Below, one piece after another: positions 26,510 to 42,958 of a stretch of DNA of 64,000 nt. The stretch comes from Ottowia sp. GTDB taxonomy: Bacteria > Pseudomonadota > Gammaproteobacteria > Burkholderiales > Burkholderiaceae_C. The stretch is taken from positions 5,630 to 69,629 of the forward strand of contig NZ_DAOMOQ010000014.1 of NCBI RefSeq assembly GCF_035444425.1. The letters run 5' to 3'. The notes under the pieces are model-generated. The model was given only the letters and a program-made list of their open reading frames with translations. It searched no databases and was not told where the DNA came from. Each line of letters begins with the position of its first letter. The first letter of the stretch is position 1. The position numbers were made by a program, and so were the translations under genes.

Positions 26510-27355
26510 ATGGTTTCATCACGGCGTCCTGAGTCGAACCCGAGCGGTGGCCTGGAGAGCCCGCCTGCGGACGAGCAACCCAAGCGCCAGCGTCGCATCC
26601 AGTCGGTCGTGGTCGGCATGCGCGTGCTGCAGGTGCTGACCGAGCAGCACCGCCCGTTGCCCCTGAAGGAACTGGCCCAGCTGGCGGGCATGCCGCCCGG
26701 CAAGGCGCATCCGTACCTGGTCAGCTTCATGGCCGCCGGCATGGTCAAGCAAAGCCCGCTGACCGGCCATTACGAGTTGGGGCCGATGGCCTTGCAGATG
26801 GGGCTGGCGGCCCTGCAGCAGCTCGATCCGCTGACCGAAGCCAGCCAGGAGGCCGCCCTGCTCGCCGCGCGCGCCGACCTGAGCGTGGCGCTGGCGGTCT
26901 GGGGCCACCTGGGGCCGACGGTGGTGCGGCTGGACGAGCCGCGCTACCCGCTGCATGTCAACCTGCGTGTCGGCACGGTGATGTCGGTGTTCAACACCAT
27001 CACCGGCCGCGTGTTCGCCGCCTACCTGCCCGAGAGGATGGTGCGCACCATGCTGGAGGACGAGCATCGCCGCGTGGTCGGTGGCACATCCGCGGATTTC
27101 GATTCGCCCGAGGTGCAGCAGCTGTTGCAGGAGATCCGCGCCACCGGCATGGGGCGCGGCCAGTCGGTGCCGCTGCCCGGTGTCAACACCCTGTGCGCGC
27201 CGGTGTTCGACACCGCCGGGCACATCGCGCTGGTGATCACCATGTTCGGCCCGCAGGGTGCGTTCGACGCCGACATCGACGGCCCGGCCGGACGCATGCT
27301 GCGCGAGCATGCCGACGCCGTTTCGCGCCGGCTGGGGGCGCAGGGTCGTCGATGA
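26510..27355 (+). CDS. IclR-family transcriptional regulator
   Basis: N-terminal HTH (LKELAQLAGMPPGKAHPYLVSF), then VNLRVG...TITGRVFAAY and LCAPVFD. Confidence 0.9.
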   Translation: MVSSRRPESNPSGGLESPPADEQPKRQRRIQSVVVGMRVLQVLTEQHRPLPLKELAQLAGMPPGKAHPYLVSFMAAGMVKQSPLTGHYELGPMALQMGLAALQQLDPLTEASQEAALLAARADLSVALAVWGHLGPTVVRLDEPRYPLHVNLRVGTVMSVFNTITGRVFAAYLPERMVRTMLEDEHRRVVGGTSADFDSPEVQQLLQEIRATGMGRGQSVPLPGVNTLCAPVFDTAGHIALVITMFGPQGAFDADIDGPAGRMLREHADAVSRRLGAQGRR

Positions 27356-27585: not shown

Positions 27586-27637
27586 GTTTATTAAACATAG
27601 GCAAATGCATTGACTAATAGCTAAAAACATCGATAAT
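27586..27637 (+). promoter_or_regulatory. Putative sigma70 promoter with adjacent palindrome upstream of the MBL gene
   Basis: TTGACT (27610-15), 16 nt, GATAAT (27632-37); GTTTA-T-TAAAC palindrome at 27586-96; AT-rich patch. Confidence 0.55.
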
Positions 27638-27674: not shown

Positions 27675-28640
27675 ATGACCGAAAAGAAGTTCGCTTCCCA
27701 GGCCGACCTGGAAGAAAAGCAGATCAGCTGGGACAAGCTGTCTGACAACGCCTACGCCTACACCGCCGAGGGCGACCCGAACACCGGCGTCATCATCGGC
27801 GACGACGGCTGCATGATCATCGACGCCACCGCCACCCCGGTGGCGGCGCAGGGCGTGATCAGGAAGATTCGCGAGATCACCGACAAGCCGATCAAGTACG
27901 TGGTGCTGACGCACTACCACGCGGTGCGTGTGCTCGGCGCCTCGGGCTATCGTGACGAAGGCCTGCAGCAGGTCATCGCCAGCCAGGACACCTACGACCT
28001 GATCGTCGAGCGCGGCCAGCAGGACATGGATTCCGAGATCGGCCGCTTCCCGCGCCTGTTCCAGGCCGTCGAGAGCGTGCCCGGACTGACCTGGCCCACC
28101 CTCACCTTCACCGGCGACATGACGCTGTGGCTGGGCAAGCTGGAAGTCAAGATCAAGCAGATCGGCCGCGGCCACACCAAGGGCGACACCATCGTCTACC
28201 TGCCGCAGCAGAGCATCTGCTTCTCGGGCGATCTGGTCGAGGCGGATGCCGCCTGCTACACCGGGGACGCCTACCTGGCCGACTGGCCGCAGACGCTCGA
28301 CAACCTCGCCGCGATGAAGTTCGACAAGCTGGTGCCCGGCCGCGGCCCGGCTTTGATGACGCCAGAGGCGGTGAACCTGGGCCTGGCCTACACACGCGAC
28401 TTCGTGTCGACGCTGTACCAGAGTGCGCGGGAAGCCGTGGCGCAGGGCATGGATCTGAACGCCTGCATGAAACACACGCGCAAGGCCATGGACCCGAAGT
28501 TCGGCCATGTTTTCATCTACGAGCACTGCCTGCCGTTCGACGTGACCCGCGCCCACGACGAGGCCAGCGGCATCCGCGATCCGCGCATCTGGACCGCCGA
28601 GCGCGATCAGGAGATGTGGCATGAACTGCAGAAGGCGTAA
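27675..28640 (+). CDS. Metallo-beta-lactamase-fold protein with non-canonical metal motif
   Basis: PNTGVIIG, THYHAVR (in place of HxHxDH), GRGHTKGD, FSGDLV and LVPGRG. Confidence 0.88.
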   Translation: MTEKKFASQADLEEKQISWDKLSDNAYAYTAEGDPNTGVIIGDDGCMIIDATATPVAAQGVIRKIREITDKPIKYVVLTHYHAVRVLGASGYRDEGLQQVIASQDTYDLIVERGQQDMDSEIGRFPRLFQAVESVPGLTWPTLTFTGDMTLWLGKLEVKIKQIGRGHTKGDTIVYLPQQSICFSGDLVEADAACYTGDAYLADWPQTLDNLAAMKFDKLVPGRGPALMTPEAVNLGLAYTRDFVSTLYQSAREAVAQGMDLNACMKHTRKAMDPKFGHVFIYEHCLPFDVTRAHDEASGIRDPRIWTAERDQEMWHELQKA

Positions 28641-28783
28641 GCGCCCAGCCACCTGACGGCGCTTTCCCCTCGCTGTTGAAGCGGGAGCATGGCCGTGCCT
28701 GATACCGCTCAGCGCACGGCATTTGCGGATCCGGCCCGCTCCGCGGCCGATTGAATCAGGCGGAGCACAAGAGGAGACAAACG

Positions 28784-30460
28784 GTGCAGAAAACCTTCAC
28801 CTACCCAAAATTCGATTTCGTCAAGCCACCCGAGCTGACCGAGGGCAAGCCAGGTCACTATCCCGTGGTCGTGGTCGGCGCCGGCCCGGTCGGCCTGTCG
28901 GCGGCCATCGACCTGGCCCAGCTCGGCCAGGATGTGCTGCTGCTCGACAACGACGACACGGTGTCGATCGGCTCGCGCGGCGTCTGCTACGCCAAGCGTG
29001 CGCTGGAAGTGCTCGACCGCATGGGCTGCGGCGACAAGTTCGTGCAGAAAGGCGTCAGCTGGGACGTCGGCCGCACCTTTCTGCGCGAGAGCGAGGTGTT
29101 CAACTTCAACCTGCGCCCGGAGCCGTTCCACCACCGCCCGGGCATGATCAACCTGCAGCAGTACTACCTCGAGGAGTACCTGATCGAGCGCGCGCGCCAG
29201 CTCGAGGGCAAGCTGCAGATGCGCTTCAAGAGCAATGTCATCTCGGTGGTGCCGGGCGATGACAAGGTGACGGTGCGCGTGGAAACGCCCGAGGGCCCCT
29301 ACTCACTCACCACCGACTGGCTGGTGGTCGCCGACGGCGCGCGCTCGCCGATCCGCAACATGCTGGGCCTGGACATCGACGGCAAGATCTTCATGGACCG
29401 CTTCCTCATTGCCGACGTGGTGATGAAGGCCGATTTCCCGGCCGAGCGCTGGTTCTGGTTCGACCCGCCCTTCCACCCCAACCAGTCGGTGCTGCTGCAC
29501 AAGCAGGCCGACAACGTGTGGCGCATCGATTTCCAGCTCGGCTGGCAGGCCGATCCGGAACAGGAGAAGAAGCCCGAGAAGGTGATCCCCCGCATCAAGG
29601 CGATGCTGGGCGACGAGCGCGAGTTCGAGCTCGAATGGGTCAGCGTCTACACCTTCCAGTGCCGGCGCATGAACCAGTTCAACCACGGCCGCGTGCTGTT
29701 TGTGGGCGATGCGGCGCACCAGGTTTCGCCGTTCGGCGCGCGCGGCGCCAACTCGGGCATCCAGGACACCGACAACCTGGCCTGGAAGCTCAAGCTCGTG
29801 ATGGATGGCAAGGCTCCAGCCACCCTGCTCGACAGCTATTCGGAGGAACGCGGCTACGCGGCCGACGAGAACATCGCGAACTCGACCCGCTCGACCGATT
29901 TCATCACGCCCAAGAGCAACACCAGCAAGACCTTCCGCAACGCGGTGCTGGAGTTGGCCGCCAAGTACCCGTTCGCACGCGCACTGGTCAACTCCGGCCG
30001 GCTGTCGGTGCCGAGCTGGCTGGCCAGTTCCAGCCTGAACACGCCCGACACGGACGAGTTCCAGGGCCACATGATTCCCGGCGCGCCGATGGCCGATGCG
30101 CCGGTCCAGGTCGGTGGCAGCGACGGGTGGCTGCTGCAACAGCTCGGCAACCGCTTCCAGTTGCTGCACCATGTCGAGGACGCATCGGGGCTCGACGCCG
30201 CCACCGCGAAGGCGCTGGGCGAGCTGAACGCGGATGCCAATGGCATCGAGGTCGAGCCCGTCATCGTCGCCCGGCGGGGTCAGGCGCCGGGCGGGCTGAA
30301 GACGCTGATCGACACCCAGGGCTGCATCGCCGAACGCTACGACCTGAAGCCCGGCAGCAGCTACCTGGTGCGCCCCGACCAGCACGTGGCCGCTCGCTGG
30401 CGCACGTTCGACGCCGGCAAGGTCAAGGCCGCCGTGGCCCGCGCCACCTGCAACGTCTGA
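28784..30460 (+). CDS. FAD-dependent aromatic monooxygenase (PHBH/MhpA-type fold, 558 aa)
   Basis: GAGPVG, VADGARS, VGDAAH and PFGARGAN, with C-terminal YLVRPDQHVAARW; GTG 28784 follows GAGGAG. Confidence 0.88.
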   Translation: MQKTFTYPKFDFVKPPELTEGKPGHYPVVVVGAGPVGLSAAIDLAQLGQDVLLLDNDDTVSIGSRGVCYAKRALEVLDRMGCGDKFVQKGVSWDVGRTFLRESEVFNFNLRPEPFHHRPGMINLQQYYLEEYLIERARQLEGKLQMRFKSNVISVVPGDDKVTVRVETPEGPYSLTTDWLVVADGARSPIRNMLGLDIDGKIFMDRFLIADVVMKADFPAERWFWFDPPFHPNQSVLLHKQADNVWRIDFQLGWQADPEQEKKPEKVIPRIKAMLGDEREFELEWVSVYTFQCRRMNQFNHGRVLFVGDAAHQVSPFGARGANSGIQDTDNLAWKLKLVMDGKAPATLLDSYSEERGYAADENIANSTRSTDFITPKSNTSKTFRNAVLELAAKYPFARALVNSGRLSVPSWLASSSLNTPDTDEFQGHMIPGAPMADAPVQVGGSDGWLLQQLGNRFQLLHHVEDASGLDAATAKALGELNADANGIEVEPVIVARRGQAPGGLKTLIDTQGCIAERYDLKPGSSYLVRPDQHVAARWRTFDAGKVKAAVARATCNV

Positions 30461-30480: not shown

Positions 30481-30705
30481 ATGCCCCTGAACACCGAACC
30501 CAACTTCCGCGAAGCCGGCCATCGCTATTTCCAGGCCTACTCGCCCGGCGACGATTTCTACGAGGCCCTGATCGACACCCACCGCGACCTCAGCGACGAG
30601 CAGAGCGCCATGGTCAACGCACGCCTGATCCTGCTGCTGGCCAACCACATCGGTGACATCGGCGTGCTGCGCGAGGCGATGGCGATCGCGCGCGAGGGCG
30701 TGTAA
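30481..30705 (+). CDS. DUF2783-family small protein (74 aa)
   Basis: DDFYEALIDTHRDLSDEQSAMVNARLILLLANHIGD matches the recalled family pattern. Confidence 0.8.
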   Translation: MPLNTEPNFREAGHRYFQAYSPGDDFYEALIDTHRDLSDEQSAMVNARLILLLANHIGDIGVLREAMAIAREGV

Positions 30706-30736: not shown

Positions 30737-31291
30737 ATGGCGATCGTTGAAAAGATCCACCACGTTGCCTACCGCTGCAAGAACGCCAAGGAAACCGTCG
30801 AGTGGTACCAGAAGTACCTCGATATGGACTTCATCCTGGCGATTGCCGAGAACCAGGTGCCGTCCACCAAGGAACCCGACCCGTACATGCACATCTTCCT
30901 CGACGCCGGCAATGGCAACGTGCTGGCCTTCTTCGAGCTGCCGACCAAGGCGCCGATGCTGGCGCCGTCGGACGCCAACACGCCGGCCTGGACCCAGCAC
31001 CTGGCGCTCAAGGTCGATTCGGTCGACACCATGATGAAGGTCAAGGCCAGGCTCGAGGCGGACGGCATCGAGGTCGTCGGCCCGACCGACCACACCATCT
31101 TCCAGTCGATCTATTTCCGCGATCCCAGCGGCCACCGGCTGGAACTGGCCGCCAACACCTCCACGCCCCAGATGGACAAGGCGCTGGACGAGGTCAAGTG
31201 GGACATGCTGAACGAGTGGGACCGCACCAAGCAGGCCCCCACCCATGCGCGCTGGATGCACGACGGCAGTGGCAAGGTCGGCGCGCCGTAA
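30737..31291 (+). CDS. VOC/glyoxalase-fold metalloprotein (184 aa)
   Basis: IHHVAYRC, YMHIFLD, LAFFEL, QHLALKV and SIYFRDPSGHRLEL; GGAG RBS. Confidence 0.88.
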   Translation: MAIVEKIHHVAYRCKNAKETVEWYQKYLDMDFILAIAENQVPSTKEPDPYMHIFLDAGNGNVLAFFELPTKAPMLAPSDANTPAWTQHLALKVDSVDTMMKVKARLEADGIEVVGPTDHTIFQSIYFRDPSGHRLELAANTSTPQMDKALDEVKWDMLNEWDRTKQAPTHARWMHDGSGKVGAP

Positions 31292-31312
31292 GCGTTCCCC
31301 TGCGCCACCCAG

Positions 31313-31344
31313 AAGCGGCAGCCGACGGCTGCCGCTTTTCTTTC
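31313..31344 (+). terminator. Rho-independent terminator after the VOC gene
   Basis: Hairpin AAGCGGCAGCC-GAC-GGCTGCCGCTT followed by TTCTTTC. Confidence 0.85.
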
Positions 31345-33990: not shown

Positions 33991-34028
33991 GGGGTCGTCT
34001 CAGAATTCGGAAAATAAAGCACGTTAAG
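33991..34028. mobile_element. 38-bp terminal inverted repeat of a Tn3-family (Tn21-subgroup) transposon
   Basis: GGGGTCGTCTCAGAATTCGGAAAATAAAGCACGTTAAG; the tnpA stop codon lies inside it. Confidence 0.93.
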
Positions 34029-34574
34029 CCGGTTGCAATGCTCGCAACGGCCTGAACTTGCCCGCGCCGATCTTGGCGCTGCTGCGCCAGAGGTAATCGC
34101 CGGTCAGGTTGATGTGTTCCCAGCCTAGCGGCGATAGGTACTGCAACAGCACATCATCGACGGCATGACCAGTGCCACGTAGCCCGTGTGTCGCCCGCTC
34201 CAAATAGACCGTATTCCACAGTACGATGGCCGCCGTCACCAGGTTGAGGCCGCTGGCCCGGTAGCGCTGCTGCTCGAAACTGCGGTCGCGGATTTCTCCC
34301 AGGCGGTTGAAGAACACGGCGCGCGCCAGTGCGTTGCGCGCTTCACCCTTGTTCAGCCCGGCATGTACGCGGCGGCGCAGTTCGACGCTTTGCAGCCAGT
34401 CCAGAATGAACAGCGTGCGCTCGATGCGCCCCAGCTCGCGCAGCGCTACGGCCAGGCCGTTCTGGCGCGGGTAGCTGCCGAGTTTCCTGAGCATCAGCGA
34501 GGCCGTCACCGTGCCCTGCTTGATCGAGGTGGCCAGCCGCAGGATTTCGTCCCAATGGGCGCGGACGTGCTTGA
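34024..34574 (-). pseudogene. tnpA: C-terminal fragment (about 184 codons) of a Tn3-family transposase
   Basis: [42 protein letters not shown] and [15 protein letters not shown]; interrupted at about 34575. Confidence 0.93.
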
Positions 34575-34682
34575 TGTTGATTTCCACGCAGAAGTGACCC
34601 ACTAACCCCCAGGATTTCCATCCAAACCTGACCCACGTACTAACCCTAACCTGCTGCTTTGTTGAGCAGCAGGAGACCAGGA

Positions 34683-36209
34683 GTGATAGACGTGGCAACA
34701 CTGAGTGTCATCAGGCGCTGGGCCCTGCGAGAGCAGTTGTCCATCCGAGAGATCGCCCGCCGCACGGGCCTCTCGCGCAACACCATCCGCAAGTACCTGC
34801 GCGCAGGCGAGGCCGAGCCGCACTATGCCAAGCGGGTCAGTCCATCCAAGCTCGATCCCTTCGCATCGAAGCTCTCGGGCTGGCTCAAGACGGAAGCTGG
34901 CCGATCCCGCAAGCAGCGGCGTACCGTCAAGCAGATGTACGCTGATCTGCAGGCCCTGGGCTATACCGGCTCCTACAACCGGGTTGCCGCCTTTGCCCGG
35001 CTGTGGCAAGAGCAGCGCGTGGTGGCCCAGCAGACCACCGGCCGCGGCACCTTCGTTCCCCTGGCCTTCGGCCCAGGTGAGGCCTTCCAGTTCGACTGGA
35101 GCGAGGACTGGGCAGTGCTGGCCGGAGTGCGCACCAAGCTGCAAGTGGCCCACTTCAAGCTCAGCCACAGCCGAGCGTTCTACCTGCGCGCCTATCCGCT
35201 GCAGACGCACGAGATGCTGTTTGACGCTCACAACCATGCGTTCGTAGTTCTGGGCGGTGTGCCCCGCCGTGGCATCTACGACAACATGCGCACCGCTGTA
35301 GACCGGGTGCGCCGTGGCAAGGAGCGCGACGTCAATGCGCGCTTTGCGGCCATGGTCAGCCACTTCCTGTTCGAGGCCGAGTTCTGCAATCCCGCGTCGG
35401 GCTGGGAGAAGGGCCAGGTGGAGAAGAACGTGCGCGACGCCCGCCATCGCTTGTGGCAGGTGGTGCCGCCATTCCCAGGCCTGACTGAGCTCAACGCCTG
35501 GCTTGAGGAGCGCTGCGTGGCCTTATGGAATGAGATCGAGCATGGCAAGTTGCCGGGCACCGTCGCGGATGTCTGGGCTCAAGAGAAGGCAACCTTGATG
35601 CCGATGCCTCGGCCCTTCGATGGCTTTGTGGAGCACACCAAGCGCGTCTCGCCCACCTGCTTGGTCCACTTCGAGCGCAACCGCTACAGCGTGCCGGCCC
35701 CGTATGCCAACCGGCCTGTAAGCCTGCGGGTCTACGCAGACCGCTTGGTGATTGCCGCCGAAGGCCAGATCGTGTGCGAGCACCAGCGCCTGATCGAGCG
35801 TAACCACCATGGTGCTGGGCTGACCGTCTACGACTGGCGCCACTACCTGGCGGTGCTGCAGCGCAAGCCCGGAGCCTTGCGCAATGGTGCTCCGTTCCTG
35901 GAGCTACCAGCGGCCTTCAAGCGACTGCAGGCCACCTTGCTCAAGCAACCCGGCGGCGACCGGGAGATGGTGGAGGTTCTGGCACTGGTGCTGCACCACG
36001 ACGAGCAGGCGGTACTCACCGCAGTGGAGCTGGCACTGGAGTCAGGTGCTGCCAGCAAGACCCACATCCTGAACGTGCTCCATCGCCTGCTGGACGGCAA
36101 GCCCGCTCCAGCACCGGTCACTTCGCCCCAGGCCCTCAAGCTGGCGGTGGAACCCCAGGCCAATGTGCTTCGCTACGACCAATTGAGGGAGGTGCGCTAT
36201 GCGTCATGA
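34683..36209 (+). CDS. istA: IS21-family DDE transposase IstA (508 aa)
   Basis: [35 protein letters not shown] and GWEKGQVE. Confidence 0.93.
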
Positions 36210-36416
36210 CCCTGCCATCGCTTCCATCGTGATCATGTTGCGCGAGCTCAAGATGCACGGTATGGCCCAGGCGGTTGCGGAACTGGCTGAGCAAGGTGCA
36301 CCGGCCTTCGATGCGGCACAGCCCATCCTGTCTCAACTGCTCAAGGCCGAGACCGCCGAGCGGGAGGTGCGCTCGGTAGCCTACCAATTGAAGGTGGCCA
36401 GATTCCCGGCGTACCG
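36199..36416 (+). pseudogene. istB: Truncated IstB (about 73 codons; ATPase domain absent)
   Basis: LRELKMHGMA...EREVRSVAYQLKVARFPAYR, then unrelated sequence; no Walker A motif. Confidence 0.88.
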
Positions 36417-36462
36417 GAGGGTCGGCCGTGATTCCTGCAAAATCCGCAGAAAGGAGGCTAAG
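36417..36462. mobile_element. Putative GAGGG-tipped Tn3-family terminal repeat (TnXax1/Tn4651-like lineage)
   Basis: GAGGGTCGGCCGTGATTCCTGCAAAATCCGCAGAAAGGAGGCTAAG begins exactly where istB homology stops, ends in CTAAG and sits next to tnpT/tnpS. The IR may be longer. Confidence 0.65.
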
Positions 36463-36620
36463 TATTTGATTTAACTAATATTTTTTCAACTGAGTGACCG
36501 TAGCTACCATCCAACGCGCCTTCGACTATGTGCTCAAAGCATTCCATACGCTGTACAGCGTATGGTTGGTGCGCAGCCAGGGCCTGGAGCTTGGAGCGAA
36601 AGCATCGTGCTGTCGCGCTA

Positions 36621-37610
36621 CTAGCGTTTGAGCACGGTCTTCATTTTGGACCGCGTCGCGGGCGTCTCAGTGTTGGCGCCCCCCTTGGGTAGGCGTGCTT
36701 TGAGCTGGACCAATAGGTCAGCCATGTCTTTTTGCAACTGCTCCTGGTGCGAGTGCGCCATCTGCAGATCCTCGCGTGCAGAAAGGATCTCACGGGCCAA
36801 GCCTGCGTTCTCGGCGATCAGGGCGCTGACCTGCACCCGAAGCGACTGGGCTTGCTCGTGCGAATCTGCCAACGACTTGGCCGCTTTTTTATTGTCATCT
36901 GCGAGCAAGAGGGTGACGCGCTTCAGTTCCTGCCGGGTCCTATCGACGTCCTCCAACAGCCGTCGTTCCTGAGCGGAAGCTCGTTGCTCCAGGCGCTCAC
37001 GCTCCTGCCGGTGCTCCTCGTTCAGCGCATTGAGGCGACCACGCTCGGCTTGCAACGCTTGCGTTGCCGCAGCATGCTGGGTGCGCACGGATTCAATGTC
37101 GGCGTCCCTACCCGCCAGCCCTTTTTGGAGGTCGGTGACCTGGCGCATCAGATCGGCGATCTGGTGATCCTTGGCCAGAAGCGCTGCGCCCAGTGCTTCC
37201 GAGCGCTCGTTCAACCGTTGCTGTTCTTGATCCAAGGCTGTTCGCTCGGCAGCGAGCCGCTCTACCAGCTTTTCCAGTGCGTCTCGATCGACCTGTACCG
37301 ATTGCGCCGCCTGCTCCTGGGCATGCTGCTGGGCGCGACCCCACAGCGCCTTGGCCACCCGCAGAACCGGTGCTGGCAGGGCGCCCTGCTCTCCGGTTCC
37401 CTCTTCGCCACCATTCGCGTCCAGTCGCTTGGCCAAAGAGCCGTACCAGGCATCGAGCATGGGCGCCACGGTGTTCGGCGACCCCCGGCCAAGGTACGCG
37501 CGCACGCGCTCGATCGTGGGCCGCTCACCCTGCGAGAGCACCGCATCGGCCGCGGCCCAAACCTCGTCGACCTGGACGCCTCGAGTGACTCTCGTACTTT
37601 TCATTTGCAT
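36621..37610 (-). CDS. tnpT: TnpT-like cointegrate-resolution helper (KfrA-type N-terminal DNA-binding domain plus coiled coil)
   Basis: VWAAADAVLSQGERPTIERVRAYLGRGSPNTV followed by a long E/Q/A/L-rich helical region; divergent from a tyrosine recombinase. Confidence 0.72.
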   Translation of the reverse strand: MQMKSTRVTRGVQVDEVWAAADAVLSQGERPTIERVRAYLGRGSPNTVAPMLDAWYGSLAKRLDANGGEEGTGEQGALPAPVLRVAKALWGRAQQHAQEQAAQSVQVDRDALEKLVERLAAERTALDQEQQRLNERSEALGAALLAKDHQIADLMRQVTDLQKGLAGRDADIESVRTQHAAATQALQAERGRLNALNEEHRQERERLEQRASAQERRLLEDVDRTRQELKRVTLLLADDNKKAAKSLADSHEQAQSLRVQVSALIAENAGLAREILSAREDLQMAHSHQEQLQKDMADLLVQLKARLPKGGANTETPATRSKMKTVLKR

Positions 37611-37637
37611 CGCCCTGCTTCAACGGTTAAATTACCA

Positions 37638-37698
37638 ACGATAAGGGATACTTATCGTGACTTATCGGCCAATTTCGTATCAAATCATACATAGTATG
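37638..37698. promoter_or_regulatory. Putative resolution (res) site between the divergent tnpT and tnpS
   Basis: ACGATAAG-GGATA-CTTATCGT (37638-58), a second ACTTATCG (37660-67) and CATAC-ATA-GTATG (37686-98), in an AT-rich spacer. Confidence 0.65.
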
Positions 37699-38795
37699 TG
37701 CGAGAAATATCCTTCAATCACCCTGCCCTGAACATGCGCCTGCCCATCCTCCAGAAAACCCCGGCCCTGCAGCCGCACGAGTTGAGCGATATGACCGCGC
37801 AGGCCGTGGCCGACCTGCTGCGCGAGGGCGAATCGCTCAACACGCAACTGAGCTACCGCAGCGCACTTCGATATTGGGCCGCCTGGTACGGGATCCGTTA
37901 CGGCGCGCAAATCAGCCTGCCGCTGCCCGCGGCCTGCGTGCTGCAGTTCATCGTCGACCACGCGCAGCGCACCACGCCCAAGGGCTTGGTGCACGAGCTG
38001 CCGGCGAAGATCGACGCCGCCCTGGTCGAGGCCGGCTACAAGGGAAAGACGGGACCGATGGCGCACAACACGCTGGTGCACCGCCTGGCCGTGCTCTCCA
38101 AAGCGCACAAGATGCGCGACGTGAAAAACCCCTGTCAGGACCCCAAGGTGCGCGAGCTGCTCTCGCGCACGCGCAAGGCCTACGCCAAGCGCGGCGAGTT
38201 GCCCAAGAAAAAAGACGCGCTGACCAAGGATCCGCTGCAGCTTGTGCTGGCCACCTGCGACGACACATTGAAAGGGAAGCGTGATCGTGCCCTCCTCCTC
38301 TTTGCTTGGGCCAGTGGTGGGCGCCGGCGCTCCGAAGTGGCCGCGGCCGACGTTAAATTTTTGAAGCGTCTGGCGCGGGGGGAGTTTTCTTACGAGCTCG
38401 CGTTCTCGAAAACGAACCAGAGTGGCGTCGACCGGCCCGAGAACCACAAGCCGGTGCTGGGTGCTGCGGGTGCTGCCCTGGAAGATTGGCTACTGATCAG
38501 CGGGATCCGCGAGGGCGCCCTCTTCCGTCGGGTGCTCAAGGGCGGCCACCTGGGTGGCCCGCTGTCGGCAGCGTCCGTGCGCGACATCGTTCAGGCGCGG
38601 TGTTTGTTGGCGGGTGTTGAGGGGGAGTTTTCTGCGCATTCGCTACGGTCGGGCTTTGTGACGGAAGCTGCCGCACAGAACGTCTCGATCGCTGACACGA
38701 TGGCGATGACAGGCCACCAGTCCGTGGCCGTGGTGCTCGGATACCAGCGCCGCGGTGGGCTTTCCAAAAACCCCGCTTCTAGTCTGCTGGCATAG
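37698..38795 (+). CDS. tnpS: Tyrosine recombinase, TnpS-like resolvase
   Basis: RDRALLLFAWASGGRRRSEV, SKT, HSLRSG, TGH and catalytic Tyr (LGY); the true start may be ATG 37734. Confidence 0.8.
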   Translation: MREISFNHPALNMRLPILQKTPALQPHELSDMTAQAVADLLREGESLNTQLSYRSALRYWAAWYGIRYGAQISLPLPAACVLQFIVDHAQRTTPKGLVHELPAKIDAALVEAGYKGKTGPMAHNTLVHRLAVLSKAHKMRDVKNPCQDPKVRELLSRTRKAYAKRGELPKKKDALTKDPLQLVLATCDDTLKGKRDRALLLFAWASGGRRRSEVAAADVKFLKRLARGEFSYELAFSKTNQSGVDRPENHKPVLGAAGAALEDWLLISGIREGALFRRVLKGGHLGGPLSAASVRDIVQARCLLAGVEGEFSAHSLRSGFVTEAAAQNVSIADTMAMTGHQSVAVVLGYQRRGGLSKNPASSLLA

Positions 38796-39195: not shown

Positions 39196-41565
39196 TCACT
39201 CTTCCCGGATGACTGCGCCCCGCAACCGCAGCGCGTTGCCGATCACCGAGGCCGAGCTGAGGCACATGGCCAGCGCGGCGATCATGGGCGACAACAGCCA
39301 GCCGGTGAACGGGTACAGCAAGCCCGCGGCCAGCGGAATGCCCAGGGCGTTGTAGACGAAGGCGAAAGCCAGGTTCTGCTTCATGTTCTCCACCGTCGCC
39401 ACCGAGAGCGCGCGGGCCGTCGCAATGCCCCGCAGATCGCCCTTGACCAGCGTGAGTTGCGCGCTGTTCATCGCCACATCGGTGCCCGTGCCCATGGCAA
39501 TGCCCACATCGGTGCGGGCCAGTGCCGGCGCGTCGTTGATACCGTCACCGGCCATCGCGACCACGCGGCCCTCCGCCTGGAGTTTCTCCACGAGTTGGAG
39601 TTTGTCGGCGGGCTTCACTTCTCCGTGCACCTCGTCAATGCCCAGGCGTTGACCCACGGAGCGCGCGGTGGTGAGGCCGTCGCCGGTGGCCATGATCACG
39701 CGGATGTTCGCCTGGCGCAGCGAGGCCAGTGCGTCCGCCGTGGTGGTCTTGACCGGGTCGGACACCGCCAGCAGACCGGCCAGCGCTTGGTTCACCGCGA
39801 GAAACATGACGCTGGCGCCCTGTGCGCGCAGTGCTTCGGCCTGGGCGGCCAGGGGCGCGACGTCCACCCCCAGCTGTTGCATCAGCGCCGTGTTGCCCAA
39901 GGCCAGGGGCTTGCCGCTCACAACACCCTTGACCCCGATGCCGGACTCGGAGTCGAACTGCTCGGGCTTGTCGAGTGTGAGCCCCTGTTGCTTTGCTGCG
40001 GCCACGATGGCGGCGGCCAGCGGGTGTTCGCTGCCCTGGTCCAGGCTGGCGGCGAGGCGCAAGACCTCGTCTTCGGGGACGCTCCCGTGTCCGATGGCAC
40101 GCTCGAAGGTGGGGCGGCCTTCGGTCAGCGTGCCCGTCTTGTCGACGATCAGTGTGTCGACCTTGCGCAGGTTTTCGATGGCGGCGGCGTCGCGAAACAA
40201 GACGCCGTTGGTGGCGCCGCGCCCGGTCGCCACCATGATGGACATGGGCGTCGCCAGGCCCAACGCACAGGGGCACGCGATGATCAACACGGCCACCGCA
40301 TTGATGAGTGCGTAGACCCAGCTCGGCTCGGGTCCGAACAGACCCCAGCCGAAGAAGGTGACCAGTGCCGCGACCACGACACCCACGACAAAGTAGCCCG
40401 CCACCTGGTCGGCCATGCGCTGCATGGGCGCGCGCGAACGCTGGGCCATGGCAACCATCTGCACGATCTGCGAGAGCACGGTATCCGAGCCCACGTGCTC
40501 GGAGCGCATCACCAATGCACCGCTGGTGTTGAGCGTGGCGCCGATCAGCTTGTCACCGACCCGCTTGGTCACCGGCAGCGGCTCGCCCGTGAGCATCGAT
40601 TCGTCGAGTGCGCTGCTGCCCTCGACCACGGTGCCGTCGGTCGGCACCTTTTCGCCGGGGCGCACACGCAGCAGGTCGCCCACATGCACATGGGCCAGCG
40701 GCACGTCTTCTTCCTGCCCGTCGGCCGCGATGCGCCGCGCGGTCTTGGGCGCCAGACCCAGCAGCGAGCGGATGGCGGCCGAGGTTTGGGACCGTGCCTT
40801 GAGTTCCAGCAGCTGACCCAACAAGGTCAGCGAGATGATCACCGCCGCCGCTTCGAAGTACACCGACACCCGCCCCATCGACACAAAGGAGTCGGGGAAC
40901 ACCTGCGGCGCCACCGTGGCCACCACGCTGTACACAAACGCCGAACCGGTGCCCAGACTGATCAGCGTCCACATGTTGGGGCTGCGGTTCACGATCGACT
41001 GCGCGCCGCGCACAAAGAATGGCCAGCCGGCCCACAGCACGATCGGCACGGTCAGCACCAGCTCGATCCAGCTCTGTGTGGTCATGTCGAACCAGCCGAG
41101 GTTGTGGCCGAACATCGCCAGCACGGCGACCACCACCGTGAGCGGCAAGGTCCACCAGAACCGCCGCTGGAAGTCCACCAGCTCGGGGTTCTCCTCAGCG
41201 TCCAGTTCGGGCATGACCGGCTCCAGCGACATGCCGCATTTGGGACAGTTGCCCGGGTGGTCCTGCCGGATCTCCGGGTGCATGGGACAGGTGTAGAGCG
41301 TGCCGGGCTTGCCCTGCGGCGCGGGCGTTGGGGCTGCGTGACGCCCCACCTCGGCGTGAACAAACCGGGCCGGTTCGGCCGCAAACCGGGCTTGGCACTT
41401 CGCGCTGCAGAAATAGTAGGGCTGCCCCGCGTGCTCCAGGTGGTGTGGCGACTGCTCGGTGACCGCCATCCCGCACACGGGATCTTTCAGCCCGGTCGCA
41501 GGATGAAGTGGTTTTGACGCGCCGTTGGGGTGGCCGGCATGGTCGTGTTTTGCTTGTGTGTCCAT
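39196..41565 (-). CDS. copA: Cu(I)/Ag(I)-type P1B-ATPase with YHS and heavy-metal-binding N-terminal domains (789 aa)
   Basis: KDPVCGM..YFCS (YHS), [38 protein letters not shown] and MCLSS. Confidence 0.92.
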
Positions 41566-41759
41566 GTCTTTCCCTTCCTGGAAATTTCGAAACCCCGTGG
41601 TGCCAAACACCATCTTCCTCTCAATGGCGCGATGTGACGGAGCGCATTGGCACTTGGTGCACGTGAACGCCGCGCATGCAGGCCAGAAGGTCAACTGAGG
41701 TTGCCCCTGAAAAGTGGAGTTCTTAGCCCTTGTTGAAAATACCGACAAGGAGTTCAGAG

Positions 41760-42092
41760 ATGAGTGAAAAGCAGGTGCGTGCGCAGTACACGCGAGAGTT
41801 CAAGCTGGAGGCTGTTCGGCAGGTGCGCTCGGGTCAGCCGATTGCGGTGGTGGCCAAGGTACTGGGCATCCCCAAAGCGAGCCTGGGCAACTGGGTGCGG
41901 CTGTCAGCCAAGGGAGAATTGGACGGTGCGGGCGGTGGTGACAAGAGCATCCAAGTCTCGCCCGAGAAAATGGAGATTGCTCGGCTGCGCGCCGAGAATG
42001 CCCGGCTTCGCATGGAGCGTGACGTTGCAAAAAAAGCCGCGGCGTACTTCGCGCAGGACACGCTGCGAGGTACGCCTGGATTCACCAAATGA
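41760..42092 (+). CDS. IS3-family OrfA
   Basis: [33 protein letters not shown] zipper, and an A7G slip site at 42029-36. Confidence 0.9.
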
Positions 42093-42958
42093 GAAAGCTG
42101 TATCCGGTGAGTGTGTCCTGCGGTGTGCTGGAGGTGAGCGCGAGCGGGTACTTCAACTGGCTGCGCCGAGGCGAGTCTGGCCACGGTGGCCCTGGCCGGC
42201 GCTACAGCGACGAAGCCTTGCTGGCGCACATTCGTGCCATCCACGCCCAGGTCAAGGGCGAATACGGCTGGCCACGCATGCACAAGGAACTGCTGGCCCG
42301 AGGCATCCGTGTGGGCAAAGACCGGGTTCGCAAGCTCATGCAGCAGCACGCCATCAAGGCCAGGACGAAACGCAAGTTTGTGGTCACCACCGACAGCAGA
42401 CACAGCCTGCCGGTGGCGCCCGACCTGGTGCAGCGGCGCTTCAAGCCCGAGGAGCCCAACCAGCTCTGGAGTGGCGACATCACCTACATCCAGACCGACG
42501 AGGGCTGGCTGTACCTGGCTGCGGTCATCGACCTGTTCAGCCGTCAGGTGGTGGGCTGGAGCCTGCAGCCGCACATGCAGGCGGGCTTGGTCAAGGACGC
42601 GCTGGCCATGGCGTGGTGGCGCCGTAGACCGCCTCCTGGGGTGATATTCCACAGCGACCGGGGCAGCCAGTATTGCAGCGCAGAGTTCCAGCAGGCCCTG
42701 AAGAACTGGGGCATCCAATCATCGATGAGCCGCAAGGGGAACTGTTGGGACAACGCACCGACGGAAAGCTTCTGGGGGCGGCTGAAAACCGCCAGCGTGC
42801 ATGGGTGCAAATTCGCCACCCGTGAGCAGGCAAGTCAGGCGGTGATGGACTGGATGGCCTTCTACAATCACCGAAGGTTGCATTCGTCACTGGGCTACCT
42901 CAGCCCGATGCAATACGAGCAGCGCTGGTACGAGGCACAGCGTAAAAAGGCCGCGTGA
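42089..42958 (+). CDS. IS3-family OrfB (DDE); the OrfAB fusion would form by -1 frameshift
   Basis: WSGDITYI, FHSDRGSQY and GNCWDNAPTES; the -1 frame is open from the slip site (...[10 protein letters not shown]). Confidence 0.92.
   Translation: MRKLYPVSVSCGVLEVSASGYFNWLRRGESGHGGPGRRYSDEALLAHIRAIHAQVKGEYGWPRMHKELLARGIRVGKDRVRKLMQQHAIKARTKRKFVVTTDSRHSLPVAPDLVQRRFKPEEPNQLWSGDITYIQTDEGWLYLAAVIDLFSRQVVGWSLQPHMQAGLVKDALAMAWWRRRPPPGVIFHSDRGSQYCSAEFQQALKNWGIQSSMSRKGNCWDNAPTESFWGRLKTASVHGCKFATREQASQAVMDWMAFYNHRRLHSSLGYLSPMQYEQRWYEAQRKKAA

What the first reader, a model, noticed from the sequence alone, without database searches (positions are those of the whole stretch)
30737..31291. Single small VOC protein with His/His/Glu ligands as a possible ring-cleavage dioxygenase
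Seen: a 184-aa two-module VOC with candidate ligands in HHVAY, QHLAL and RLELA, as the last gene downstream of an aromatic hydroxylase. Established: VOC folds include Fe(II) 2-His-1-carboxylate dioxygenases. Inference: it cleaves the hydroxylase product rather than acting as glyoxalase I.
Basis: inference. Interest (0 to 1): 0.55.

Follow-up and report, generated by a model that had tools for sequence, protein, structure and literature searches.

The report
Glyoxalase-fold homogentisate ring-opening enzyme
This small gene very probably encodes the enzyme that opens the aromatic ring of homogentisate, using a glyoxalase-like fold instead of the textbook one; the same enzyme has already been shown in Acinetobacter, so this is a new copy of a known kind.

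Summary
Observation confirmed. Window 30737-31291(+) encodes a 184-aa VOC protein with H9, H88 and E136. It ends an MBL - FAD monooxygenase - DUF2783 - VOC operon, followed by a strong hairpin. [quoted passage not shown] The primers of a 2022 A. baumannii 'hmgA' complementation match the ends of the orthologous VOC gene, which falls in the same clade. In 331 Burkholderiales genomes, a close homologue is found in 22 of 32 hppD genomes lacking a cupin HmgA, against 9 of 75 that have one. Beside the monooxygenase sits the VOC, a canonical HmgA or a divergent cupin HmgA. Caveats: this genome also has a divergent cupin HmgA, two alphaproteobacterial-type operons carry both enzymes, and I could not read the 2025 structure paper. 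The scan noted this family before on other DNA (e1-2680287). Verdict: new member of a known kind. The livelier side lead is DUF2783 as the missing subunit of 4-hydroxyphenylacetate 1-hydroxylase.

The parts
30737..31291 (+). VOC-fold homogentisate 1,2-dioxygenase, 184 aa. Inferred metal ligands H9, H88, E136; inferred second-sphere residues H119 and Y126.
30481..30705 (+). DUF2783 protein, 74 aa; probable MhaB-like coupling subunit of the monooxygenase
   Evidence: Pfam E 4e-30; found in 47 of 47 loci with a near-full-length monooxygenase orthologue at >=50% identity; predicted complex score 0.74 against best control 0.00
28751..30460 (+). FAD aromatic monooxygenase (PRK08132 subfamily; start TTG 28751 or GTG 28781); MhaA/HpaH-type hydroxyphenylacetate hydroxylase, which would make homogentisate
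27675..28640 (+). MBL-fold protein, 321 aa, with a degenerate metal motif (THYHAVR); candidate HpaC-like mutase or other homogentisate-pathway accessory enzyme
   Evidence: identity with HpaC recalled from memory, not tested
26510..27355 (+). IclR-family regulator (start uncertain)
   Evidence: found near the VOC in 21 of 80 loci
27610..27637 (+). sigma70-like promoter, TTGACT-16-GATAAT, before the MBL gene
   Evidence: 1 found, 0.4 expected: weak on its own
31311..31343 (+). intrinsic-terminator-like hairpin closing the operon

Best explanation
The protein is a VOC-fold homogentisate 1,2-dioxygenase, an orthologue of the Acinetobacter enzyme. Inferred mechanism: Fe(II) is held by H9, H88 and E136 (2-His-1-carboxylate). 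Homogentisate, a 2-substituted hydroquinone, binds, O2 is activated, and the C1-C2 bond is cut to give maleylacetoacetate, which MaiA and fumarylacetoacetase, encoded elsewhere in this genome, take to fumarate and acetoacetate. The operon supplies the substrate: the FAD monooxygenase with its DUF2783 subunit, probably helped by the MBL protein, turns a hydroxyphenylacetate into homogentisate. HppD can also supply it from tyrosine. Shown here: sequence, fold, orthology, conservation and gene context. Taken from papers: the activity of the Acinetobacter orthologue. Inferred: metal, ligands, cleavage site and the feeder substrate for this copy.
For: [quoted passage not shown] (2) PMC13572102 cites Seo et al. 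2025 (Proteins 93:2150) as showing that the glyoxalase-annotated homologue is a homogentisate 1,2-dioxygenase. (3) In PMC9431530, a transposon in A. baumannii 'hmgA' gives pyomelanin and complementation abolishes it. Its primers match the two ends of the VOC gene between maiA and iclR/hppD: the reverse exactly, the forward one A short in an A-run. That protein is 57% identical to P0001, keeps H9, H52, H88, H119, Y126 and E136, and nests in the same clade (SH-aLRT 98). (4) Of 80 nearest loci, 59 have a fumarylacetoacetase-family gene, 59 the monooxygenase, 23 maiA, 3 hppD, and none a cupin hmgA. (5) In a phylum sample, hppD lies within 1.5 kb of the VOC in 14 of 29 loci. (6) In 331 Burkholderiales, a close VOC is in 22 of 32 hppD genomes without cupin HmgA and 9 of 75 with one. 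(7) Next to the monooxygenase orthologue lies the VOC (10 genomes), canonical HmgA (17) or divergent cupin HmgA (11), never two together in that sample (hand count). (8) This genome has hppD, maiA and fahA.
Against: This genome also encodes a 376-aa divergent cupin HmgA-like protein with its His/Glu/His motifs apparently intact, so the gap-filling argument does not apply here. Two operons from the phylum sample carry canonical hmgA and the VOC together (L157, L158). In the window's own genus, 4 of 12 VOC-bearing genomes also have canonical hmgA. I could not read Seo 2025, so its kinetics and metal data are known to me only by title and citation, and 9U42 holds Zn. One earlier genomic paper guessed the A. 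baumannii gene was inactive (PMC7646211); the 2022 complementation argues against that. Kin are not independent in the genome counts.
Confidence: 0.88

Rival explanations
1. It is a ring-cleaving dioxygenase for a related para-diol, such as a substituted homogentisate, gentisate or an alkylhydroquinone made by the adjacent monooxygenase. Homogentisate is a side substrate and the cupin HmgA handles tyrosine.
For: It coexists with a cupin HmgA in this genome and within the operons L157 and L158. The next sequence hit, 1zsw, has the look of the PcpA/LinE hydroquinone dioxygenases (recalled, not tested). The monooxygenase substrate is not fixed.
Against: Close orthologues sit directly beside hppD, whose product is homogentisate. 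The active-site residues are identical to the Acinetobacter enzyme. Either HmgA type occupies the same slot after the same monooxygenase.
Confidence: 0.07
2. It is an accessory protein of the homogentisate pathway, for example handling a quinol or quinone intermediate or acting as an isomerase, and not the ring-cleaving step.
For: It sits in the same operon as canonical hmgA in L157 and L158. VOC folds carry out many chemistries.
Against: It is the only candidate ring-cleaving gene found in 22 hppD genomes lacking a cupin HmgA. The PDB title and the cited paper name the dioxygenase activity.
Confidence: 0.04
3. It is a glyoxalase I (lactoylglutathione lyase), as many databases name its relatives.
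For: Pfam Glyoxalase hit and automated names. A profile alignment places H9, H88 and E136 on GloA H5, H74 and E122, and with low confidence places E67 on GloA E56.
Against: TIGR00068 scores 21 bits against a cut-off of 120. Identity to GloA is 19-22%. A separate GloA-like gene is on contig C3. The neighbourhood is aromatic catabolism, and the title of Seo 2025 denies glyoxalase I function for the orthologue.
Confidence: 0.01

Closest known systems
Acinetobacter VOC-type homogentisate 1,2-dioxygenase (PDB 9U42; Seo et al. 2025, Proteins 93:2150; A. baumannii 'hmgA' of Zhao et al. 2022, PMC9431530)
   Same: Same length (182 vs 184 aa), 57-60% identity, rmsd 1.7 A, all putative active-site residues identical, same clade, same pathway neighbours across relatives.
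   Different: Here it follows a hydroxyphenylacetate-type monooxygenase module in a Comamonadaceae-like genome (nearest named relatives Ottowia, Comamonas, Rubrivivax) rather than hppD-maiA-fahA. This genome also has a cupin HmgA-like gene.
Cupin homogentisate 1,2-dioxygenase HmgA (TIGR01015; PDB 1EY2, 3ZDS) and its divergent ~380-aa form
   Same: Same inferred reaction, a 2-His-1-Glu iron site, and the same operon slot.
   Different: Unrelated fold and less than half the length: an analogue, not a homologue.
VOC extradiol and hydroquinone dioxygenases (catechol 2,3-dioxygenase XylE, L-DOPA dioxygenase, PcpA/LinE type)
   Same: VOC fold, His/His/Glu set, and a His...Tyr...Glu C-terminal motif (H119, Y126, E136). 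L-DOPA dioxygenase is also a small single-domain protein (Z 14.1, rmsd 2.6 A, 133 aligned).
   Different: Identity is about 20% or less by structure, scores are far below NCBIfam cut-offs, and most are two-domain proteins acting on catechols.
MhaAB 3-hydroxyphenylacetate 6-hydroxylase (P. putida U) and HpaH/HpaC 4-hydroxyphenylacetate 1-hydroxylase (Delftia acidovorans): the upstream module
   Same: A flavoprotein of about 560 aa plus a coupling protein of about 60 aa next to hmgA (PMC3053370), or a flavoprotein plus a mutase (PMC9338888). Both routes give homogentisate.

Membership tests
VOC-type homogentisate 1,2-dioxygenase (9U42 kind) | Full-length sequence orthology to the Acinetobacter enzyme | tested here: met
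   57% global identity (102/179), E 2e-66, same clade SH-aLRT 98
VOC-type homogentisate 1,2-dioxygenase (9U42 kind) | Same single-domain VOC fold with C-terminal helix | tested here: met
   Z 20.6, rmsd 1.7 A, 166 aligned; TM 0.82/0.89
VOC-type homogentisate 1,2-dioxygenase (9U42 kind) | Conserved His/His/Glu and second-sphere residues | tested here: met
   H9, H52, H88, H119, Y126, E136, H170 and H175 identical in A. baumannii; all but H170 invariant in 89 close homologues, apart from one gapped row at H9
VOC-type homogentisate 1,2-dioxygenase (9U42 kind) | Linked to homogentisate source and sink genes | tested here: met
   hppD, maiA and fahA in own genome
VOC-type homogentisate 1,2-dioxygenase (9U42 kind) | Fe(II)- and O2-dependent conversion of homogentisate to maleylacetoacetate | not testable with these tools
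   needs an enzyme assay; reported for the orthologue by citation only
Glyoxalase I (GloA) | Score above the lactoylglutathione lyase equivalog cut-off | tested here: not met
   TIGR00068 21.4 bits against 120
Glyoxalase I (GloA) | Fourth ligand (Glu56 position) in the first module | tested here: inconclusive
   Strand limits in the model (10-14 and 61-67) put A64 at that place; a low-confidence profile alignment puts E67 there
Cupin HmgA | HgmA_N/HgmA_C cupin domains | tested here: not met
   No such Pfam or NCBIfam hit; VOC fold instead
HpaH/HpaC or MhaAB (upstream module) | Orthology to the characterised Delftia or P. putida proteins | not tested
   reference sequences not retrievable; only size, architecture and context agree

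The most novel reading that the evidence does not exclude
The whole operon is the complete 4-hydroxyphenylacetate 1-hydroxylase route: MBL as the HpaC-type mutase, the flavoprotein as HpaH, and DUF2783 as an obligatory small subunit. That would explain why cloning hpaH and hpaC alone gave no homogentisate (PMC9338888). The route ends in whichever of three homogentisate dioxygenases (VOC, canonical cupin, divergent cupin) a lineage has plugged into the slot.
Probability: 0.4. Interest if true: 0.45.

Novelty: new member of a known kind. Interest (0 to 1): 0.17.

Why it matters
The enzyme kind is published, so the finding itself is ordinary. Its practical value is in annotation. These proteins are widely named 'VOC family protein' or 'lactoylglutathione lyase', yet they were found in about one in ten Pseudomonadota genomes sampled (30 of 301), and they close the apparent hmgA gap in many Burkholderiales. 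The side lead on DUF2783 offers a cheap test of a stalled reconstitution problem, namely making homogentisate or pyomelanin from 4-hydroxyphenylacetate.

Tried and rejected
Strict mutual exclusion with cupin HmgA was tested and rejected: the two coexist in this genome, in 4 of 12 VOC-bearing genomes of its genus, and within operons L157 and L158. Counting the 37-48% sister VOC clade as the same enzyme would raise gap-filling to 31 of 32. I did not accept this, because that clade branches apart, lacks H170 and H175 and mostly has unrelated neighbours. The longer ORF from GTG 30653 was rejected: it overlaps DUF2783, the ribosome-binding site is at 30737, and homologues start there. A module-against-module profile alignment failed, so the fourth-ligand question stayed open. 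Seo 2025, Raspail 2011 and Hareland 1975 were not held. Paper searches for 9U42 and '4-hydroxyphenylacetate 1-hydroxylase' found nothing, and the DUF2783 search gave one unrelated paper.

Full report
Observation. The ORF at 30737-31291(+) is real and encodes 184 aa behind a good ribosome-binding site. It is a Glyoxalase/VOC protein (Pfam E 2e-17). The model (pLDDT 93.7) has two beta-alpha-beta-beta-beta modules and an extra C-terminal helix. The gene order is IclR (26510-27355), a promoter-like site (27610-27637), an MBL-fold protein (27675-28640), an FAD monooxygenase (28751-30460), DUF2783 (30481-30705), the VOC, and a terminator-like hairpin at z -3.8.

What it is. One solved structure stands far above all others: 9U42, E 2e-66 by sequence with the next hit at 1e-6. 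[quoted passage not shown] Foldseek gives TM 0.82/0.89 at 57% identity, and VIA gives Z 20.6, rmsd 1.7 A over 166 residues, with the next Z at 16.0. PMC13572102 cites Seo et al. 2025 (Proteins 93:2150) as showing that this glyoxalase-annotated gene is a homogentisate dioxygenase. I could not read that paper.

Genetic evidence. In PMC9431530, disruption of A. baumannii 'hmgA' gave pyomelanin and complementation removed it. To check which gene was meant, I compared the published primers with an annotated A. baumannii locus, fahA-maiA-VOC-iclR-hppD. They match the two ends of the 549-bp VOC gene, the reverse exactly and the forward one A short in an A-run. That protein is 57% identical to ours, keeps every putative active-site residue and lies inside the same clade (SH-aLRT 98 on the quick tree).

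Genomic context. In the 80 nearest loci, 74 carry at least one homogentisate-pathway neighbour and none has a cupin hmgA. In a phylum-wide sample, 30 of 301 genomes have the gene, and hppD lies within 1.5 kb in 14 of 29 loci. In 331 Burkholderiales searched with the same handles, 107 have hppD. Of the 32 that lack any cupin HmgA, 22 have a close VOC (55% identity or more), 9 have only a 37-48% sister form and 1 has neither. Of the 75 with a cupin HmgA, 9 have a close VOC. Only 7 of 224 genomes without hppD have a homologue. Fisher p is 1e-8 for the close form, overstated because kin are not independent. Next to orthologues of this window's monooxygenase, the slot holds the VOC in 10 genomes, canonical HmgA in 17 and a divergent cupin HmgA in 11, none nearby in 19, and never two together (hand count). 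This genome has hppD, maiA and fahA elsewhere.

Counter-evidence. The genome also encodes a 376-aa divergent cupin HmgA-like protein with the iron motifs apparently present, so the VOC is not needed to fill a gap here. Two operons read hmgA-fahA-MBL-monooxygenase-DUF2783-VOC-maiA, with both enzymes together (L157, L158), and 4 of 12 VOC-bearing genomes of the window's genus also have canonical hmgA. Redundancy after operon merging is the simplest reading, but a shifted substrate range or an accessory role cannot be excluded without assays. Glyoxalase I is very unlikely: 21 bits against a cut-off of 120, and a separate GloA-like gene on contig C3. Whether the first module lacks the fourth glyoxalase ligand stayed inconclusive.

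Mechanism (inferred). By established knowledge of VOC ring-cleaving dioxygenases, H9, H88 and E136 bind Fe(II), while H119 and Y126 stand where second-sphere His and Tyr stand in extradiol enzymes. Homogentisate is cut between C1 and C2 to give maleylacetoacetate. The feeder module matches in architecture either MhaAB, a 566-aa flavoprotein with a 60-aa coupling protein next to hmgA (PMC3053370), or HpaH/HpaC of Delftia, a flavoprotein plus mutase (PMC9338888). Both make homogentisate; I could not test which applies. DUF2783 was found in all 47 loci with a near-full-length monooxygenase at 50% identity or more. A predicted complex of monooxygenase, FAD and DUF2783 scored 0.74 against a best control of 0.00, with runs agreeing in at least 88% of contacts and partner pLDDT at least 88. 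That mark was reached by 58 of 80 solved and 2 of 110 mismatched pairs, counts that hold only roughly here; it supports binding but does not show it. The review notes that hpaH plus hpaC gave no homogentisate and that another sequence may be needed. DUF2783 is the obvious candidate, provided the MBL and flavoprotein here are HpaC and HpaH, which I recall from memory and did not verify.

Verdict. The enzyme kind was shown genetically in 2022 and structurally in 2025, and the scan reached the same conclusion earlier on another genome (e1-2680287). It is a new member of a known kind; interest 0.17.

Noticed in passing
window 30481-30705 with 28781-30460: DUF2783 is predicted to bind the FAD monooxygenase (score 0.74, best control 0.00). 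It is a candidate for the missing component in failed HpaH/HpaC reconstitutions.
   Followed up: partly
window 27675-28640; L115, L120, L122, L123, L125: The MBL-fold gene with the degenerate motif also occurs as MBL-VOC, usually followed by fahA, without the monooxygenase, so it may act in the central homogentisate pathway and not only with the hydroxylase.
   Followed up: partly
L001:703-1833 (G000:C30): Stand-alone 376-aa divergent cupin HmgA-like gene, between an alpha/beta hydrolase and TRAP transporter genes; no close equivalent was found in the 17 other genomes of the genus searched.
   Followed up: partly
L105-L114: A sister VOC clade at 37-48% identity keeps the His/His/Glu set. One copy sits in hppD-FAH-VOC (L105) and two beside a distant monooxygenase plus DUF2783 (L112, L113); others lie by CysB-like regulators or valS. 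It may be a second ring-cleaving subfamily.
   Followed up: partly
L157, L158: Operons carrying both canonical hmgA and the VOC gene.
   Followed up: partly
L125 (Acidovorax IncP plasmid), L127 (Enterobacter plasmid), L126 (Sphaerotilus plasmid): The VOC gene with MBL or FAH/maiA genes occurs on plasmids, two of them conjugative, so the module is mobile.
   Followed up: no
window 34024-38795 and 41730-42700: By eye from the ORF translations and a GC drop to 61-64%: a Tn3-like transposase remnant, an IS21-like element with a truncated second gene, a KfrA-like protein, a tyrosine recombinase and an IS3-like element around a copper-type P1B ATPase (39196-41748).
   Followed up: no
protein P0130: A 778-aa protein with this VOC domain at residues 600-773 and no significant Pfam family over most of the first 600 residues; possibly a fusion or an assembly artefact.
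   Followed up: no
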